Source: Octopus vulgaris
Lineage: Eukaryota
Length of the DNA stretch: 64,000 nucleotides
Reading direction: 5' to 3'
Assembly: GCA_951406725.2 (NCBI GenBank)
Contig: OX597831.1
Span: forward strand, 51,646,001-51,710,000
Shown here: in pieces, positions 12,434 through 59,976 of the stretch
Numbering within the stretch: the first letter of the stretch is position 1
Layout of the letters: every line of letters begins with the position of its first letter
Notes under the pieces: generated by a model
Told to the model about the DNA's origin: nothing
Seen by the model: the letters and a program-made list of their open reading frames with translations, nothing else
The model's database searches: none
Position numbers and translations under genes: made by a program

Positions 12434-12628
12434 GGTCCCGGGTTGAATCGGGGTTAACCACAGTAAATAAGGTACTCAATACATAGCAGAGTAAATTAAT
12501 TTATTTTATAGAAGGAGCTTCTACAGGACTAGAACTGTTTTATTCAAAAGAAATCATCAGGAAGCCCTGATGATTTCTTTTGAATGAAACAGTTCTAGTC
12601 CTGTAGAAGCTCCTTCTATAAAATAAAT
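12431..12628 (-). mobile_element. Short PLE-like remnant: 63-bp inverted repeat with two hammerhead copies, between (TA)n tracts
   Basis: Arms 12499-12561 and 12566-12628, loop AAGC; CTGATGA-TTTCTTTTGAAT-GAAAC-AG..CT-GTA-GAAGCT motif. Confidence 0.75.
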
Positions 12629-12940: not shown

Positions 12941-13220
12941 GTTATTGTTATTAATATTATTATTATTGTTTTTACGTATTATTTTTGTATTCATATTCGT
13001 GTAACATCGTCCGTTTTTCTGTTTTTGTTTTGTATACATTCGAAGCTTTCTTCCAACAAATCTAATGCGCTTAGCTTAGTTTTTCCTTGTGGCTGGCCAG
13101 ATAGGAGCAATCTCAAGATTAATCAGCCGAAATTGCGAGGATGATCCGGTTCTTGACTGAAGATTGAGGGCTTCGAATGTCCCGTCCGTGTTTTTTGTGT
13201 CGTCATCAAAATGTTTTGCG

Positions 13221-13314: not shown

Positions 13315-13800
13315 GTGTCACTTAAAAAGATTCTCACAAAGGCAAAATTGTCTTCTAAAATTACGGATGCAAAAGTAAAAAAATGTGGTAGATCGAACTG
13401 TGCAACATGTCCTAACCTATTGGAAGGATCAGAATTCTTCTTTAAAGAGGGACAGAAATTTAAGATCAAATCTAACTTTACTTGTGCCTCTGAAAACATA
13501 ATTTATGTTATTAAATGCTCGGGCTGCCACCAAGACTACGTGGGTTCCACGGGACTATCACTCAGGCGCAGATGCACACTGCATCGACAACAGATTGCAT
13601 TCCCAGAATATAGAATGATACCTTTTAGTGAGCACATTGAGAAATGCGCAAAGCAACTACTGCCACAATTTTTAATCTTCCCATTTTACCAATGTGCTTT
13701 CGGATCATCAACACAAATGAGACTGAACAAGGAAACATTCTTCATTGAAAAGTACAAACCCAGACTCAACCATCCGAACATACTGACACAGAGAAATTAA
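13315..13800 (+). pseudogene. GIY-YIG endonuclease domain of a Penelope-like element (uninterrupted frame, no true ATG, RT missing)
   Basis: 161-codon open frame with IY-x10-YVG plus downstream Arg, Glu and Asn motif residues; begins at the inversion junction. Confidence 0.88.
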
Positions 13801-13931
13801 CAAGGAAAAGGAAAAAAATTTTTAAGCGATTATCTCCCTACACCGGAAAAATCACTCACTACCTCCCTTATTTAGAAATCTCCTGGAAATAAAAACAACG
13901 ATAATTCCATGCAATATAAACATAACGTCAC

Positions 13932-13971
13932 AAGAAATTTGAAAAGCTACACGCGAAACCGGTAATTTCTT
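13932..13971 (+). ncRNA. Minimal type I hammerhead, U3:A8 core variant (predicted)
   Basis: AAGAAAT-TTGAAAA-GC(TACAC)GC-GAAA-CCG-GTA-ATTTCTT: 7-bp stem I, palindromic ACCGGT stem III, GUA triplet; located in the PLE pLTR. Confidence 0.8.
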
Positions 13972-14147
13972 AAAAATTTTTAAATTATGTCATTTTAAGG
14001 AAAAAAAAAAAAAAATTTTTCCAATATTCTCCAGACATTTTGACACAAATATATATATTTTTTAACATTTAAGTCTTCTGTCGTTTTTTCACACTTTACT
14101 ATTTTCTTATATATTCACCCACGTGCTTTACCAAACAAACTTTCTTA

Positions 14148-14197
<50 letters not shown>

Positions 14198-37903: not shown

Positions 37904-39293
37904 CATTGTTCATTTAATGCTCATTTTTGTATGCTAGTGTGAAAGTATATCGTTTAGTGGTTAGGGTATTTGGCTCCCTGATTGTAAGGCCGTGAGTTCG
38001 AATCCTGGCCACACACTGTGTCCTTGAGCCAGACACTTTATTTCATGTTGCTCGGATCCATTTAGCTGGTAGAAATGAGTAGTACTTGTATTTCAAAGGG
38101 CCAGCCTTATCTCATTCTGTGCCATACTGAATCTCCCTGAGAACTACATTAAAGGCACACATGCCTGTAGAGTGCTCAGCCACTTGCGTGTCAATTTCAC
38201 GAGCTGCTTCTGTTGATCAGATCAACTGGAACCCTCATCTTCATAGTGCCAGATTTTTAGTTTTGCATTCTAGTATGGGTTGGATGAGTATATAATACTG
38301 AGACATTGTTTTATAACCCGATGTCCTTCATCATCATCGTTTAACGTCCACTTTCCATGCTAGTTGGACGATTTGACTGAGGTCTGGCAAACCAGATGGC
38401 TGCACCAGGCTCCAATCTGATCTGGCAGAGTTTCTACAGCTGGATGCCCTTCCTAATGCCAACCACTCGGAGAGTGTAGTGGGTGCTTTTACGTGCCACT
38501 GGCACGAGGGCCAGTCAAGTGGTACTGGCAACGGCCACGCTCAAACAGTGCTTTTTATGTGCCACCTGCACAGGAGCCAGTCCAGCGGCACTGACAACGA
38601 CCTGTTCCTGTTAATAACTCATAACTGTATTTTGTACTTGATTTCCTCAGTCCGTCTTCTAGTCCAAGCTACAACTAGAAACCAAATGTCTGGGAAGGCC
38701 AATAAGAAGAGATATAGAAATCAGTTTAGGCTCATGTTGACATAGTGTAAAATTCTTCAGAAAAATTGGTAAAAGATTGCAATAGTGTAAAAACTACAGA
38801 AGTATACTAACTACAGGACACGAATAGACAAAAACTGGTCCATGTTTCAAAAACAAGTAACTATCAACAACCACATGTATATGTTCCCTATATGTGAGCC
38901 TGAATCAGTTGGCACATGTATACTCATAGATAACAGCTTTGGAGGGGTCATCATTGGCATATATATATATATATTTATATGTATTTGTTTTGCAAAATAT
39001 TTGATGTGAAATCGTATGTTGAAACAGATATTGTTATACTTGGGGATGGTCATATTTTGCCACTTAAATACACACACTGTATATTTGGTCTTTACTTCAG
39101 CTTTATTCTTATTGGAAAATGGAATAAGCAGAACAAAAGGAGACACTTGGGATAGAAAGTCACTGAAGAGGTTACATGATGTGTGATGAAAGAACTTTGA
39201 CAAAGATACTAAAATAATAAGAATAAAGATGAATACCAAATATATATAATGCATGTTTAATTGGTAAAATATGACCATCCTCTTGTATAACTA

Positions 39294-39332
<39 letters not shown>

Positions 39333-39439
39333 AGTTCCAAGCAGTCAATCTTTTTGCGGCTGCTTACCAGCACACTGTGGACCTGTTTAACTTTTCCAGG
39401 TGCCCCTGGCCAACAAGGGTGGAGGCATGGTGTTGTGGT

Positions 39440-40106
39440 GCGCAGACCTCTACACAGCAAAAGCTCTCTGCCAATTTCGAGACACCTTCATCTACAGTCC
39501 GAACCCTCCACTTTGCACGTCTTCCCTAATCGACCCCTCCCTTACTTCAAACGAGACCTCTTGGTCCACAGTTTCTTCCCTAAATCAACTTCCCAGCCTG
39601 GCTCGTTCCTCTGCTTCCACCCACTTTGCTGCACTTGTCCTTACCTCCCTACCATATCACCAACTCCTTCACCTGCACTTCTACCAATCTCATCTGCATC
39701 TCCTGCTCTCTCTGCCCTTCTCTATACATCGGGCAAACGGGACGCCGCTTGGCTGACCGGTTTGCGGAATACCTCCGAGACATTCGACTCGGCAATGACA
39801 CCCCGCGCCATTTCCGCTCTACCGCTCACTCTTTGTAACACCTGTCTGTGTTCGGATTGTCCTTGCACAGGGGCCATCTGGACTCCCGTTTGCGCCATGA
39901 ACAGAGATTAATCTTCGCCATGATAGATCGCTAGCCACCACACATTCTTTATTTTTTCTCCTTGTTTCTTTCTGTATTCCTTTCTGTGGAAGAGCGTAGG
40001 CTCGAAACGTTAAAGACTTTTTTTTACTTCCCGAGCGTTAAACTAACACATCTGTTTGTTGTCTACACCACCTGTCTTTGTCTTTTGTTTTTTTTTTGTG
40101 AATTCT

Positions 40107-41010: not shown

Positions 41011-41211
41011 CACACATACGTACATATATGTGTGTGTGTGTGTGTGCGCGCGTATGTGTATGCTTTATACATGTATGTACCTAGATTATGTGTAAACACA
41101 TATTACGTATTCATATATATATATATATCACAATTGCAACGTGGAAGGTGTTTATAAACTATTTAAGAAACACACAAAATCCGTTAGATTCACTTCAACA
41201 TTTAAATTTAA

Positions 41212-41262
41212 TTTGCCAAAATATTTTCGTCGCTTTGAGACCGCGACCTGTTCACTGACAAA
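41212..41262 (-). ncRNA. Minimal type I hammerhead, G3:C8 core variant (predicted)
   Basis: Minus strand TTTGTCA-GTGAACA-G-GTCGC(GGTCTCAAA)GCGAC-GAAA-ATA-TTT-TGGCAAA: 7-bp stem I, 5-bp stem II, palindromic AATATT stem III. Confidence 0.7.
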
Positions 41263-41751
41263 ATTCCGTGTTGCGGACCCCTTTGGCTATATTTTATTCC
41301 AGTGGATCTCCGTAGCTATTCTACGTTTAAAAACTAATTTATAGATACTTGTTTCAAAATTCTTATTTTGTTTTTCACACATTCACTCGTGTACTTTGAA
41401 CTATGTGAAACATTAGAGACAGAAAGCTTGCTATTTCTTACAATAGATACGTCTAAATCATTTTTTTTCATGGACCCTTAATATACTACCCCTAAAAATA
41501 TTACATGAACCCTGGTTGAGGACGACTGACATAGACAAATAAGTATATCAAATACGAAATAGTATAAATTCTTGATTTATTAAAATTGGCAGAAACTTAT
41601 GTGCATAACTGTCCTCTTTTGTCTTTCTTTAATGATATGTTAACTTAGGAGAATTTTTCTTGAAATTTGTCTCCCTTTCTCATATGGAACTCGTTTCAGT
41701 TGCCATTTGGCAATTGGGACGTATCCCTTAGAGGTAGAGTTAATTATAATA

Positions 41752-45025: not shown

Positions 45026-45193
45026 TGGCTATTAAGTCTACAGTTCTTGTGGCTATTAAGTCTACAATTCTTGTGGCTATTAAGTCTACAATTCTTGTGG
45101 CTATTAAGTCTACAATTCTTGTGGCTATTAAGTCTACTATTCTTGTGGCTATTAAGTCTACAATTCTTGTGGCTATTAAGTCTACAATTCTTG
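45026..45193. repeat. 24-bp minisatellite x7 (TGGCTATTAAGTCTACAATTCTTG)
   Basis: Seven consecutive near-identical units. Confidence 0.97.
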
Positions 45194-45394
45194 TTTCCTC
45201 TGCTGTCTTTAGGCGGTACATGAGTGACGTCTTGTTGGTCTTAATCAGAGTTTCTTGTTCTGTGGCAACAAAAATTTGTAGTAATGAGGTAAGACAAAAG
45301 ATCAGGAGACGAATGTTAATGTTCTGTACCTTTGTAATGAAAATCAACCTTGTGACCAGTTTCCTTTCTCCATGTTCATGTTGAGGCCCAAAAT

Positions 45395-47538: not shown

Positions 47539-48343
47539 TAACTGCGCTCGCTAAACCGCGGGTTCAAATTCTTAATTGCGCTCGCTACACTGCGGTTTCA
47601 AACAGTTAACTGCGCTTGCTAAACCGCGGGTTCAAACGCTTAACTGCGCTTGCTAAACCGCGGGTTCAAACGGTTAACTGCGCTCACTTAACCGGGAGTT
47701 CAAACTCTTAATTGCGCTCGCTTAACCGTGGGTTCAAACTGTTAACTGTACTCGCTAAACCACGGGTTCAAACAATTAACTTTGCTCGCATAACCGCGGT
47801 TTCAAACTCTTAATTGCGCTCGCTTAGCCGCGGGTTCAAACGGTTAACAGCGGTCGCTTAACCGCGGTTTCAAACTCTTAATTGAGTTCGTTAAACTGCA
47901 GGTTGAAACGTTTAACTGCGGTCGCTAGATCGCGGGTTGAAACGGTTAACTGCGGTCGCTAAACCGCGGGTTGAAACGCTTAGTCGCGGTTTCAAACTCT
48001 TAATTGCGCTCGCTTAACCGCGGGTTCAAACGGTTAACTGCGGTCGCTAAACCGAGTGTTCAAACCGTTAAATGCGCTCGCTTAACCGCGGTTTCAAACT
48101 CTTAATTGCGCTCGCTTAACCGCCGGTTCAAACGGTTAACTTCGGTCGCTAAACCGAGTGTTCAAACCGTTAACTGCAATCGCTTAACCGCGGTTTCAAA
48201 CTCTTACTTGCGCTCGCTTAACCGCGGGTTCAAACGGTTAACTGCGCTCGCTAAACCAAATGTTCAAACTGTTAACTGCGCTCGCTTAACCGCGGTTTCA
48301 AACTCTTAATTGCGTTCGCTAAACCACGTGTTCAAACGGTTAA
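47539..48343. repeat. CpG-rich 34-bp minisatellite (~24 units) with higher-order structure
   Basis: Consensus TAACTGCGCTCGCT(A/T)AACCGCGG(G/T)TTCAAAC(GG/TC)T; three-unit block repeated about three times at ~47997-48302. Confidence 0.95.
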
Positions 48344-54068: not shown

Positions 54069-56800
54069 GGTTGTTGGCATCCTTTTTGTCTCGGGAGACA
54101 ATGGAGTTGCGCATAAAATAATCTAGTCCGGCTTTTACATTTCATGTCCTAATACATCTCCTGCTGTGGCTGTGTAGTCCTATCCTGGACAAACACTCCC
54201 TCTTGCAGGTGCCGCAAATGTAGCGAAGACTTTGCCTGGCTGGTTGTAATGTCATTCTTTCTTGTTGACGTCTTTTCTTGTCTTTCCATTTCTCCTCTCC
54301 CTCTATGTCACTCCTTTGTGTTCCCTCTTTTACGGTACGTCGCCAATCTCCAAGGTTGCTGGCAACTGCTTCCCAGTTGGTAATATTGATGTTTCAGGCA
54401 TTCATGTCCTTTTTGCAAACATCCTTGTGTCGTAAGAACGGTCTTCCCACAGACCTTGTGCCCCTAGCAAGCTCTCCGTTGAGTATGTCCTTGGGGATTC
54501 TGCCATCTTCCATACGGCTAACATGTCGAAGCCATCTCATACGTCTTTGTGTGAGGAGTGTAAACATGCTTGGTATTCCTGCTTGCTTGAGGACATCTTT
54601 GTTGGGGACATGATTCTGCCATTTGATGCGAAGGATTTTCCGGAGGCAGCACAGGTGAAAAATATTTAGGTGACCTATGGCGTCGTATGGCGTGTGTATA
54701 GCGTCCAAGTATCACTTCCATACAGTAGAGTGCTAAGTACACATGTCTGGTAAATCTTCATTTTTGTGGTCTTGGTCAGCTTATTGTTGTCCCATGCCCG
54801 TTTGGAGAGTTGGGCCATCACAGCAGCTGCCTTGCCAATGCGTATATTGAGCTCAGTATCAAGGGATAGGTTGTAGGTGACGGTAGAGCCAAGATAGGTA
54901 AACTTCTCCACCTCCTGTTGTCTGTGGTCTCCAATATGTATGTTTGGGATGGTCGATGTAGCCTGACCCATGATGTTAGTCTTCTTGAGGCTGATAAATA
55001 AGCCAAAGTTGCCACATACTTGCTCAAAACAGTTGATGAGCCTTTGTAGGGCTTCTTCTGTGTGTGATACCAGAGCGGCATCATCAGCAAATAGCATCTC
55101 CTTGATCAAGATGCTTCTGATTTTGGTCTTGGCACGCAGACGCGAGAGATTGAACAGTTTTCCATCACTTCTACTGTGCAGAAACACTCCATCATCTGAT
55201 GTCACAAAGGCATGTGACAGCAGCAGCGAGAAGATGCCAAATAATGTAGGAGCAAGGACACAACCTTGCTTTACCCCATTTTTTATTTGGAAGGCGGCTG
55301 ATGTTGAACCATTGTGCTGTATGGTGCCTTGCATATCATCATGGAAAGATGTGATGATCCTCAGCAGCTTTGGTGGACATCCAATTTTTTTGGAGTAGGA
55401 TGAAGAGGCCTTTTCTACTTACCAAGTCAAAGGCCTTTGTCAGATCAATGAAGGTCATATATAATGGCATTTTCTGCTCTCTGGACTTCTCCTGAAGTTG
55501 GCGTATGGAGAATATCATGTCAATAGTTGATCTGCTTCTTCTAAAGCCACACTGCGATTCTGGATAAATTCGAGAAGCAAGCAGTTGCAGCCTGGCCAGG
55601 ATAATGCGAGCAGAGGCCTTTCCAACAGTGCTTAGAAGAGATATTCCACGGTAATTGTTATAATCACCACGGTCACCTTTGTTTTTGTAAAGCGTAATGA
55701 TGTTAGCATCCCGCATATCCTGAGGAACTGTATCCTCTTCCCAGCACTGACACAGAAGCTCATGAATGTGCCGAAGCAGGATGGTGTTTTTGCCGGTTTT
55801 GATGATCTCTAAGGGGATGCCGTCTTTTCCCGGAGCCTTGTTTCTTGCTAGGGAGTCAATAGCCTTGGTGAGCTCTGCTATAGATGGCAGACTGTCAAGT
55901 TCACACATGACTGACAAGATCATGACACCCTCGATTGCAGCCTCAGCTACCGTGGTCTCTCGTGAGTAGAGATCCTGGTAGTACTCCACCCATCTATCCA
56001 TTTGCTTGCTTTGGTCCTTGATAAGATCCCCAGTAGTTGATTTCAGAGGGGCTGACTTGGTTGCGGATGGACCGAGGGCCTTCTTCAAACCGGCATACAT
56101 CCCACGGGTGTCGCCACTGTCAGCAGCTGACTGGATACTCTGACAGATTTCCTGCCAATACCTATTTGCACAAAGTCTAGCAGTCAGTTGGGTTTTATTT
56201 CTTGCCTTTCTGAGTTCTTCGAGTGACTTTATAGAAGAATCCCTCTTGTATTACATCAGAGCTGCACGCTTTGTTTCGATAACTGTTTCCAGCTCTGAGA
56301 GTCCAGCACTGAACAAAATCTGGGTTTTGCCTTTCTCTCATGCCGAAAGTATCTATTGATGTGGTATACAAAGCTTCCCTGATATAATTCCACCTACTTT
56401 CAGCAGAGGTGGTTGGGCGGCTACTGAGGGCAACTTTGATAGAAACAGCAAAACATTGTCGCTGTGTAGGGTCGGAGGTTCTGGCAGTGTTAATGCGTGG
56501 TCGGCTCATTTTCTTGGAGTGATAGACTTTTTAGGCAGAATCCTCACCCTGCTTCTTATTAGTGAATGATTTGTGTCACAATCCGCGCTGTGGTAACTAT
56601 GAGTCAGTTGAAAAGAATTCAGAAAGGGTCTTCGTGTAATGATGAGATCCAGCTGATACCAGTGGTGAGATCTTGGATGTCTCCAAGATGCCTTGTGGGA
56701 TGTCTTATTGGGAAAGAATGTGTTAGTGATGCACAGGTTATGGTATGTGCAAAATTCAAGTAGTCTCTGGTCATTGTCATTCATGTTGCCAATACCAAAA
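54069..56800 (-). mobile_element. 5'-truncated RTE-clade LINE (end of AP endonuclease plus RT), frameshifted
   Basis: SWRHPRSHHWYQLDLII, SADCDTNH, KAPGKDGIP, NYRGISLL, ESQCGFR, FIDLTKAFD, GVKQGCVLAPTLF, LFADD, FTYLGS, LLYGSDTW motifs across ORFs 56823-54394. Confidence 0.95.
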
Positions 56801-59727: not shown

Positions 59728-59976
59728 CACATATATATGCTGTAGAGATTTATAAGGCATGCCAAATATTCTCCATCTGAGATTCTGTAGAAGAATAGAT
59801 GTACACACATGGATGTGTGTATCAACAGTTCAACCAGCACACCAACTCAATCTCATATTGACAAATAGTGGGAACACTCTTAACTCAAAAAATCTTGTCG
59901 CTTTGTTAGCAATTGCCTTGAAATCTCTCAAGAAGAACTTAAATTGAACACAAAGAAAACTCATACATACATACAT

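What the first reader, a model, noticed from the sequence alone, without database searches (positions are those of the whole stretch)
41212..41262. Hammerhead topology with an inverted G3:C8 core pair and UUU triplet
Seen on the minus strand: 7-bp stem I (TTTGTCA/TGGCAAA), GTGAACA, one extra G, 5-bp stem II (GTCGC/GCGAC), GAAA and palindrome AATATT. GUGAACA swaps the 3:8 pair. With the C3:G8 and U3:A8 examples, three pairings of this tertiary contact occur in one window. Inference: a rare natural core variant; the UUU triplet suggests slow cleavage.
Basis: partly seen in the sequence, partly recalled or inferred. Interest (0 to 1): 0.72.

Follow-up and report, generated by a model that had tools for sequence, protein, structure and literature searches.

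The report
Swapped-core hammerhead of Penelope-like retrotransposon
This is a hammerhead-shaped RNA motif from the end of a Penelope-like jumping gene, present in thousands of copies in this genome with one core base pair flipped relative to sister families, and it likely still cuts itself slowly, which is untested.

Summary
The motif is real (minus strand, 41262-41212). It is not a one-off. It sits in a 145-bp solo copy (41274-41130) of the pseudo-LTR of a Penelope-like element (PLE): 26 of 30 loci holding the 3' end of one RT + GIY-YIG ORF carry the same unit downstream. G3:C8 is the family state, in 6,609 of 7,244 pattern matches, with no C3:G8 revertant. Sister families keep C3:G8, and all six differences at paired positions between families A and B form three compensated pairs. 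So the swap looks selected. The other two pairings in the window are confirmed, but they belong to other repeat families. U17 is ordinary for PLE hammerheads (24 of 56 in PMC4209133, Fig. S3). An engineered C3G/G8C double mutant of a PLE hammerhead is already known to be partly active (PMC11167929). I found no report of a natural G3:C8 family, but four key papers were unreadable. Activity is untested. Copies were mostly made from uncleaved RNA, and 227 G3·G8 copies are unexplained. Verdict: new variant of a known kind, moderate interest.

The parts
41212..41262 (-). Type I minimal hammerhead motif with G3:C8 core pair, extra G after A9, 5-bp stem II, palindromic 2-bp helix III and U17
41249..41255 (-). 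Core strand with G3 at 41255 and C8 at 41250 (swapped tertiary pair)
   Evidence: family counts
41229..41247 (-). Stem-loop II (5 bp, 9-nt loop); pair 10.4:11.4 is G-C here and A-U in sister families
41219..41225 (-). Palindromic helix III (41225-41220) and U17 (41219); the predicted cut lies between 41219 and 41218
   Evidence: register supported by the A-U/G-C double change at 15.2:16.2; cut site inferred from hammerhead numbering
41130..41274 (-). Whole solo insertion: the short (untailed) form of the PLE pseudo-LTR unit, subfamily A1, starting about 4 nt inside the usual 5' edge and ending at the first of two recurrent 3' ends, next to a (TA)n tract
39154..39206 (+). Sister-family (B) hammerhead with C3:G8 and U17, used as the covariation comparator; a separate insertion
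13932..13972 (+). U3:A8 hammerhead (2-bp stem II, A17) in the 3' pseudo-LTR of a different, young PLE family; a separate insertion with no DNA similarity to family A

Best explanation
The motif is the hammerhead-type RNA element in the pseudo-LTR of a Penelope-like retrotransposon family in which G3:C8 is the family state, and it likely self-cleaves weakly, as a dimer or with help from the element's protein. Shown: repeat membership, linkage to an RT + GIY-YIG ORF, fixation of G3:C8, compensated differences from sister families, two recurrent 3' ends and head-to-head pairs. Inferred: (1) A promoter in the pseudo-LTR starts a capped transcript about 24 nt before G3. (2) The element's RT primes at AT-rich DNA and starts inside the RNA at one of two sites, about 125 and 185 nt downstream of G3. 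(3) It runs off the 5' end of uncleaved RNA, giving 145-205 bp solo copies such as this one, which then decay neutrally. (4) In the master lineage the 3:8 pair flipped while base pairing was kept. (5) A non-C at position 17, already present in sister family B, likely made this tolerable, because G3 could otherwise pair with C17.
For: Linkage: 26 of 30 loci found with the ORF's 3' end (query locus included) have the unit 0.4-1.3 kb downstream on the same strand. That ORF passes Pfam GIY-YIG (22.8 bits, cut-off 22.6) and has RT motifs alignable to a canonical PLE protein through an 803-aa homologue (52% identity; E 8e-08). Fixation: 6,609 of 7,244; none of the 20 double changes is C3:G8. No other letter reaches 3% at positions 3, 8 or 17 in contigs of 4 runs under 4 other organism codes. 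Covariation: double changes at 3:8, 10.4:11.4, 15.2:16.2 and in stem I across four families; 94.6% of cells paired against at most 45% when partners are slid. Relatives of the parent ORF in other hosts have C3:G8 (2) or U3:A8 (1) in the 3 of 27 loci where I found a hammerhead, so G3:C8 is likely derived. PLE signature: 64 of 83 head-to-head pair records join one untailed and one tailed end, matching the two RT start sites in PMC11167929. 5' edge: an untemplated G precedes the edge in 23 of 43 short copies (background 13.5%, p 6e-10); reading it as a copied cap is recalled knowledge. Activity precedent: C3G/G8C partly rescues a PLE hammerhead, which needs protein. A G3-C8 variant was more active with G17 than with C17 (PMC3884650, 'data not shown').
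Against: No cleavage was measured. Only 4 of 246 aligned copies begin within 3 nt of the predicted cut, and 1 of 47 in the set chosen by the 3' half, so templates were mostly uncleaved. RNA reads of 3 runs (organism code F, about 6% of each read) show no pile-up of ends; this is a weak test, since the libraries are fragmented cDNA and thousands of copies contribute. 227 copies are G3·G8, 37% of the 615 single changes; this predicted-dead state is more than a plain transversion should give. The minimum-energy fold pairs G3 with U17, extending stem I into an inactive shape. Cofolding two copies did not form the intermolecular helix III, and the 6-nt duplex is only -0.2 kcal/mol. The covariation is about one event per pair on one branch, not 26 independent events. 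A-to-B homology outside the hammerhead beat all shuffles in only 1 of 4 copies tested. The ORF-linked copies are subfamilies A2/A3; no ORF-linked copy of the window's subfamily A1 and no full-length element were found. In organism F reads, about 10-17% show A at position 17.
Confidence: 0.68

Rival explanations
1. The fold is kept, but not as an enzyme. [quoted passage not shown]
For: Copies derive from uncleaved RNA. Hammerhead mutants do not impair insertion in vitro, and no RNA-seq reads end at the cut in the Anolis element. The G3·U17 pairing appears in the best fold. Naiad PLEs amplify without canonical hammerheads.
Against: A compensated change at 3:8, a pair that positions G8 for catalysis (PMC8495972), and retention of U4, G5, A6, G12, A13 and A14 in all 20 aligned sequences of four families (partly built into my search patterns) are what selection on catalysis predicts.
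Confidence: 0.2
2. The ribozyme is a dead passenger. Two chance changes became fixed in one master copy through a mismatched intermediate, and the family amplified regardless.
For: 227 G3·G8 copies. In 3 of 10 inverted pairs with both cores readable, both halves are G8, so some templates may have carried the mismatch. Genomic copies change at 3 and 8 at about 4% per site, like the rest of the unit.
Against: All six differences at paired positions between families A and B are compensated. G3:C8 persists in several subfamilies, in an older composite repeat at 80-86% identity and under 4 other organism codes. G8 is scattered over subfamilies and discordant in 7 of 10 pairs, as for a recurrent copy-level change.
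Confidence: 0.1
3. The sharp 5' edge is a 3' splice site, not a transcription start, and the solo copies come from spliced RNA with a very short first exon, as with the intron of Drosophila Penelope.
For: Longer copies have a branch-point-like motif, a pyrimidine tract and CAG right at the edge. The Penelope intron ends at helix I and lies in the promoter.
Against: Short copies often keep the AG that splicing would remove (43 of 124), share only one extra G and no exon sequence before it, and a TATA-like run lies about 30 nt upstream. This rival concerns the origin of the copies, not the 3:8 swap.
Confidence: 0.15

Closest known systems
Minimal type I hammerheads of metazoan Penelope-like elements (Cervera and de la Pena 2014, PMC4209133)
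   Same: Type I layout, extra nucleotide between 9 and 10.1, G10.1-C11.1, short palindromic helix III, location in the pseudo-LTR, mostly solo or opposite-strand pairs, U17 common (24 of 56).
   Different: In their 56 examples the 3:8 pair is C:G in 53, U:A in 2, U·G in 1 and G:C in none (my count; their descriptors fixed C3/G8 or U3/A8, so G:C could not be found). The extra nucleotide is G; their consensus is H, with one G example.
Poseidon element PAc of Anolis carolinensis (Frangieh et al. 2024, PMC11167929)
   Same: Two internal RT start sites giving tailed and untailed ends, AT-rich targets, both strands extended, uncleaved RNA as template, protein-assisted hammerhead; engineered C3G/G8C is partly active.
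   Different: There G3:C8 is a laboratory mutant; here it is the natural family state. The tail here is about 56 nt (30-40 bp in Penelope). The parent protein differs, with a longer stretch between RT motifs A and B and a CxxCxxC linker; its clade was not determined.
Natural U3:A8 core variants (Perreault et al. 2011, PMC3088659, section 8)
   Same: Compensatory covariation of the 3:8 pair in nature.
   Different: Pyrimidine 3 and purine 8 are kept there; here the purine and pyrimidine are exchanged. G3:C8 is not mentioned in the section read.
Non-LTR retrozymes (bioRxiv 10.64898/2026.07.22.740005, first fifth read)
   Same: Small non-coding repeats with type I hammerheads related to PLE pseudo-LTRs.
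   Different: Retrozymes are defined by head-to-tail tandem units. These copies are mostly solo or head-to-head, with PLE tail ends. The one tandem array inspected has damaged stems.

Membership tests
Hammerhead ribozyme (type I) | [quoted passage not shown] | tested here: met
   Stems I and II in the best fold; helix III only 2 bp, register supported by a double change
Hammerhead ribozyme (type I) | Core U4 G5 A6 A9, G12 A13 A14, A15.1-U16.1, H17 | tested here: met
   kept across families, partly by pattern design
Hammerhead ribozyme (type I) | Literal C3 and G8 | tested here: not met
   G3 and C8; this is the variant itself
Hammerhead ribozyme (type I) | Watson-Crick pair between positions 3 and 8 | tested here: met
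   G:C in family A, C:G in families B-D
Hammerhead ribozyme (type I) | Match to an Rfam hammerhead model at gathering score | tested here: not met
   0 hits in the window; the C3:G8 and U3:A8 motifs of the window were missed too, so the test is insensitive to this minimal class
Hammerhead ribozyme (type I) | Site-specific self-cleavage 3' of N17 | not testable with these tools
   No assay; read ends and copy 5' ends give no sign of cleavage, both weak tests
PLE minimal hammerhead | Extra nucleotide between 9 and 10.1, G10.1-C11.1, palindromic helix III | tested here: met
   against the criteria in PMC4209133
PLE minimal hammerhead | Cleaves as a dimer or with protein help | tested here: inconclusive
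   The palindrome allows it, but cofolding did not form the intermolecular helix; needs an assay
Penelope-like element (EN+) | Linked ORF with PLE-type RT and C-terminal GIY-YIG endonuclease | tested here: met
   26 of 30 loci; Pfam GIY-YIG at cut-off; RT similarity to a canonical PLE protein. Shown for subfamilies A2/A3; the window copy is a solo A1 copy with no parent ORF in the window
Penelope-like element (EN+) | Inverted, 5'-truncated copies and an optional tail at one end | tested here: met
   64 of 83 pair records are short + tailed; inverted ORF-bearing pairs
Penelope-like element (EN+) | Full-length element flanked by two pseudo-LTRs with an intact ORF | tested here: inconclusive
   All 21 extended loci are 5'-truncated or broken; only 30 of 368 candidates were fetched
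Penelope-like element (EN+) | Clade assignment (Penelope/Poseidon, Neptune, Nematis, Hydra, Naiad) | not tested
   No reference set or tree; the C-terminal EN argues against Naiad/Chlamys as described in PMC8557442
Non-LTR retrozyme | Head-to-tail tandem units each with an intact hammerhead | tested here: not met
   Window copy is solo; family mostly solo or head-to-head; one 426-bp array has broken stems

The most novel reading that the evidence does not exclude
A retrotransposon lineage has replaced the near-universal C3:G8 hammerhead pair by G3:C8 as its working natural core, enabled by an earlier C17-to-U change (families C/D: C3:G8 + C17; family B: C3:G8 + U17; family A: G3:C8 + U17). This would be a natural stepwise epistasis series in a ribozyme active site, frozen in thousands of dated genomic copies and not yet described.
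Probability: 0.35. Interest if true: 0.58.

Novelty: new variant of a known kind. Interest (0 to 1): 0.42.

Why it matters
Hammerhead searches usually fix C3 and G8 (or U3 and A8), so a whole G3:C8 family of more than 6,600 copies is invisible to them; other such families may be missed. The compensated swap is evolutionary evidence that the tertiary fold matters to the element, which bears on the open question of what PLE hammerheads do, given that cleavage is dispensable for insertion in vitro. The graded sister families give a ready-made natural panel for testing 3:8 by 17 epistasis. The cap-like G and the paired short/tailed ends give genomic support for internal RT initiation on uncleaved RNA. 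It changes no textbook mechanism, since engineered G3:C8 hammerheads are known to be partly active.

Tried and rejected
Rfam scan: no hit. A read-derived continuation after the tail looked like the ORF start, but it belongs to an older composite repeat into which the unit was inserted, with no long ORF. A 31-codon frame in the tail: none of the 150 best of 15,256 candidates lies in a frame longer than 230 aa, so an ORF start there is not shown. The young PLE at window 13318-14197 as parent: rejected, no DNA similarity and its own U3:A8 hammerhead. G3·G8 copies as one subfamily or as the evolutionary intermediate: not supported, scattered over subfamilies. Halves of inverted pairs from different subfamilies: none of 83 by the two diagnostic sites. 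One search's column counts mix in 20 loci picked for changed 3/8 and hold duplicate copies, so I used only its divergence figure (median 3.9%). Sequencing-run search: no RNA holder listed. PDB search uninformative. Pfam RVT_1 did not reach its cut-off for the parent's homologues. No passage on cap-derived G was found. Earlier findings were not open. Not readable: Lunse 2017, Hammann 2012, Przybilski and Hammann 2007, Nelson and Uhlenbeck 2008; any of them may report natural G3:C8.

Full report
Observation. RNAfold gives stems I and II (z -2.0). A descriptor with free Watson-Crick pairing at 3:8 finds 2 hits in the window against 0.1 per shuffled window (40 shuffles). A looser scan finds three candidates in all: this one, 39163 (C3:G8) and 13939 (U3:A8). 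Rfam misses all three.

It is a repeat. The 271-bp region has 3,076 candidates in the 2.8-Gb genome. The shared unit starts about 24 nt before G3 and ends either about 125 nt after G3, as in the window copy (41130), or about 56 nt further on. Exact pattern counts with the flanks fixed: 7,244 with positions 3, 7 and 8 free, 6,609 with G3 and C8, and 20 with both changed, of which 7 are A:U, 1 is U:A and none is C:G. That leaves 615 single changes, about 4% per site, close to the median 3.9% divergence of copies, so genomic copies decay neutrally. In sets chosen without the hammerhead, G:C is seen in 33 of 36 and 28 of 29 readable cores, and UUU in 38 of 41 and 29 of 31. Contigs of four runs under four other organism codes show no other letter at 3% or more at positions 3, 8 or 17 (all 12 rows shown). 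In RNA reads under a fifth code, about 10-17% show A at 17, and 55 rows were not displayed. The host is likely a cephalopod; this is an inference from genome size and a 52% homologue named as an Octopus protein.

It belongs to a Penelope-like element. Thirteen longer copies extend upstream through a microsatellite-rich region, and two share the end of an ORF. Searching with that ORF end gave 368 candidates; I fetched 30, and 26 of them, the query locus included, have the unit 0.4-1.3 kb downstream on the same strand. 23 of the 24 cores printed are G3:C8. [quoted passage not shown] Its 803-aa homologue aligns to a canonical PLE protein (E 8e-08), although Pfam RVT_1 stays below cut-off. All 21 extended loci are truncated or broken. 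The linked copies are subfamilies A2/A3; the window copy is A1, and no parent ORF lies in the window. Of 83 head-to-head pair records (a few are segmental duplicates), 64 join one short and one tailed end, 3 two tailed, 2 two short, and 14 have an unclassified end. This fits the two internal RT start sites and two-strand extension reported for the Anolis element (PMC11167929, first half of the text read).

Origin of the solo copies (inferred). Of 246 aligned copies, 168 begin at the 5' edge and 4 within 3 nt of the predicted cut; in the one set not chosen by the core the figures are 30 and 1 of 47. Among 124 short copies, 43 keep the three bases AGA before the edge motif. In 23 of these the next base is G, where the long copies have C and the background is 13.5% G (p 6e-10). 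From recalled knowledge, such a G is the mark of a copied 5' cap; my searches found no passage for it. With a TATA-like run about 30 nt upstream, I read the edge as a transcription start, and the solo copies as run-off cDNAs of uncleaved RNA. A 3' splice-site-like motif overlaps the edge and remains a rival.

The swap is compensated. The C3:G8 motif at 39163 is itself a repeat (823 candidates), and a pattern search revealed further families. Family A has G3:C8 and U17, family B C3:G8 and U17, families C and D C3:G8 and mostly C17. In an alignment of 20 natural copies that I picked, families A and B differ outside loop II at six paired positions, which form three compensated pairs (3:8, 10.4:11.4, 15.2:16.2), plus one or two loop III positions. 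Overall 94.6% of cells pair, against 22-45% with slid partners. These are about four events, not 26, and related sequences can beat the shuffles. Homology of A and B beyond the hammerhead is modest: 1 of 4 copies beat all 300 shuffles over about 100 nt. Relatives of the parent ORF in 27 metagenome loci gave 3 hammerheads, two C3:G8 and one U3:A8 (many loci end soon after the ORF), so G3:C8 is likely derived.

Does it cut? Untested. For: the compensated core; partial rescue by C3G/G8C in a PLE hammerhead and in general (PMC8495972, passages). A remark that G3-C8 works better without C17 (PMC3884650, passages, 'data not shown') suggests that U17 was permissive. The one other convincing G3:C8 hammerhead I found has A17: it is locus L195, 1 of 27 pattern hits in viral contigs (2 passed my stem filter), against 72 of 80 canonical hits examined, and its best fold recovers stem III only. 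Against: uncleaved templates; no pile-up of read ends (weak); a G3·U17 pair in the best fold and a marginal helix III duplex; and 227 G3·G8 copies. These are spread over subfamilies, discordant in 7 of 10 pairs and concordant in 3, and I cannot explain them.

What is known. Cervera and de la Pena 2014 (PMC4209133; first half of the text and parts 1-2 of 3 of the supplement read) define this class: extra nucleotide, palindromic helix III, low activity as dimers. By my count of their Fig. S3, the 3:8 pair is C:G in 53, U:A in 2, U·G in 1 and G:C in 0 of 56, with descriptors that could not find G:C; U17 occurs in 24 and UUU in 1. Perreault 2011 (PMC3088659, section 8 and passages) reports natural U3:A8 and does not mention G3:C8 there. 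Library searches for a natural G3:C8 and for cephalopod PLE hammerheads returned none. I saw passages only of PMC8557442, PMC6765202, PMC6155905, PMC13282606, PMC2377424, PMC10085705 and PMC11014359, and the first fifth of bioRxiv 10.64898/2026.07.22.740005. Lunse 2017 (a large survey of PLE-associated variants), Hammann 2012, Przybilski 2007 and Nelson 2008 could not be read, so absence from print is not established.

Verdict. A real PLE-type hammerhead motif with a family-fixed, compensated G3:C8 core: a new variant of a known kind. Identity as a PLE pseudo-LTR motif is well supported; catalytic activity is likely but unproven. Interest 0.42.

Noticed in passing
window 13318-14197 (+): 3' end of a very young PLE family: the 150 scored of 18,423 candidates are 100% identical over the 155-aa EN piece, with open frames up to 869 aa. 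Its pseudo-LTR holds the U3:A8 hammerhead at 13939.
   Followed up: partly
window 39154-39206 (+): Family B hammerhead (C3:G8, U17) in a 5'-sharp short repeat with inverted pairs, 823 candidates; its parent ORF was not sought.
   Followed up: partly
window 39391-39911 (+): Degenerate remnant of another PLE: weak match to the EN region (E 0.004) and an RT N-terminal-like frame.
   Followed up: no
window 54675-56250 (-): Frameshifted LINE-type reverse transcriptase in two frames, both Pfam RVT_1.
   Followed up: no
window about 12500-12625 and 13136-13190: A near-perfect inverted repeat containing a hammerhead-like core without a closing stem I, and a second core-like motif with GAAU in place of GAAA; neither passed my scans.
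   Followed up: no
window 47539-48343 and 45026-45194: 34-bp GC-rich minisatellite (about 24 units) and 24-bp tandem repeat (7 units).
   Followed up: no
window 11635, 28503, 35964, 44384, 59481: Five dispersed copies of an approximately 210-bp repeat, with inverted relatives near 59963 and 63023; probably SINE-like.
   Followed up: no
genome-wide, e.g. L332-L361: 227 copies with G3·G8, 37% of single changes at 3 or 8, spread over subfamilies; possibly a slippage hot spot or gene conversion; unexplained.
   Followed up: partly
L081-L100: An older composite repeat of more than 1.3 kb carries the family-A unit (80-86% identity, G3:C8 kept), in some copies interrupted by an insert with telomere-like repeats.
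   Followed up: partly
L362:1627-4908: 426-bp tandem array of 7-8 units, each with a family-A copy whose stems I and II are damaged.
   Followed up: partly
L195:25-105 (-): A type I hammerhead-like motif with G3:C8, 9-bp helix III and A17 in a viral contig; a second candidate natural G3:C8 case.
   Followed up: partly
L402, L404, L410: ORF pieces of other PLE families abut long family-A copies on the same strand; nested insertion or template switching.
   Followed up: no
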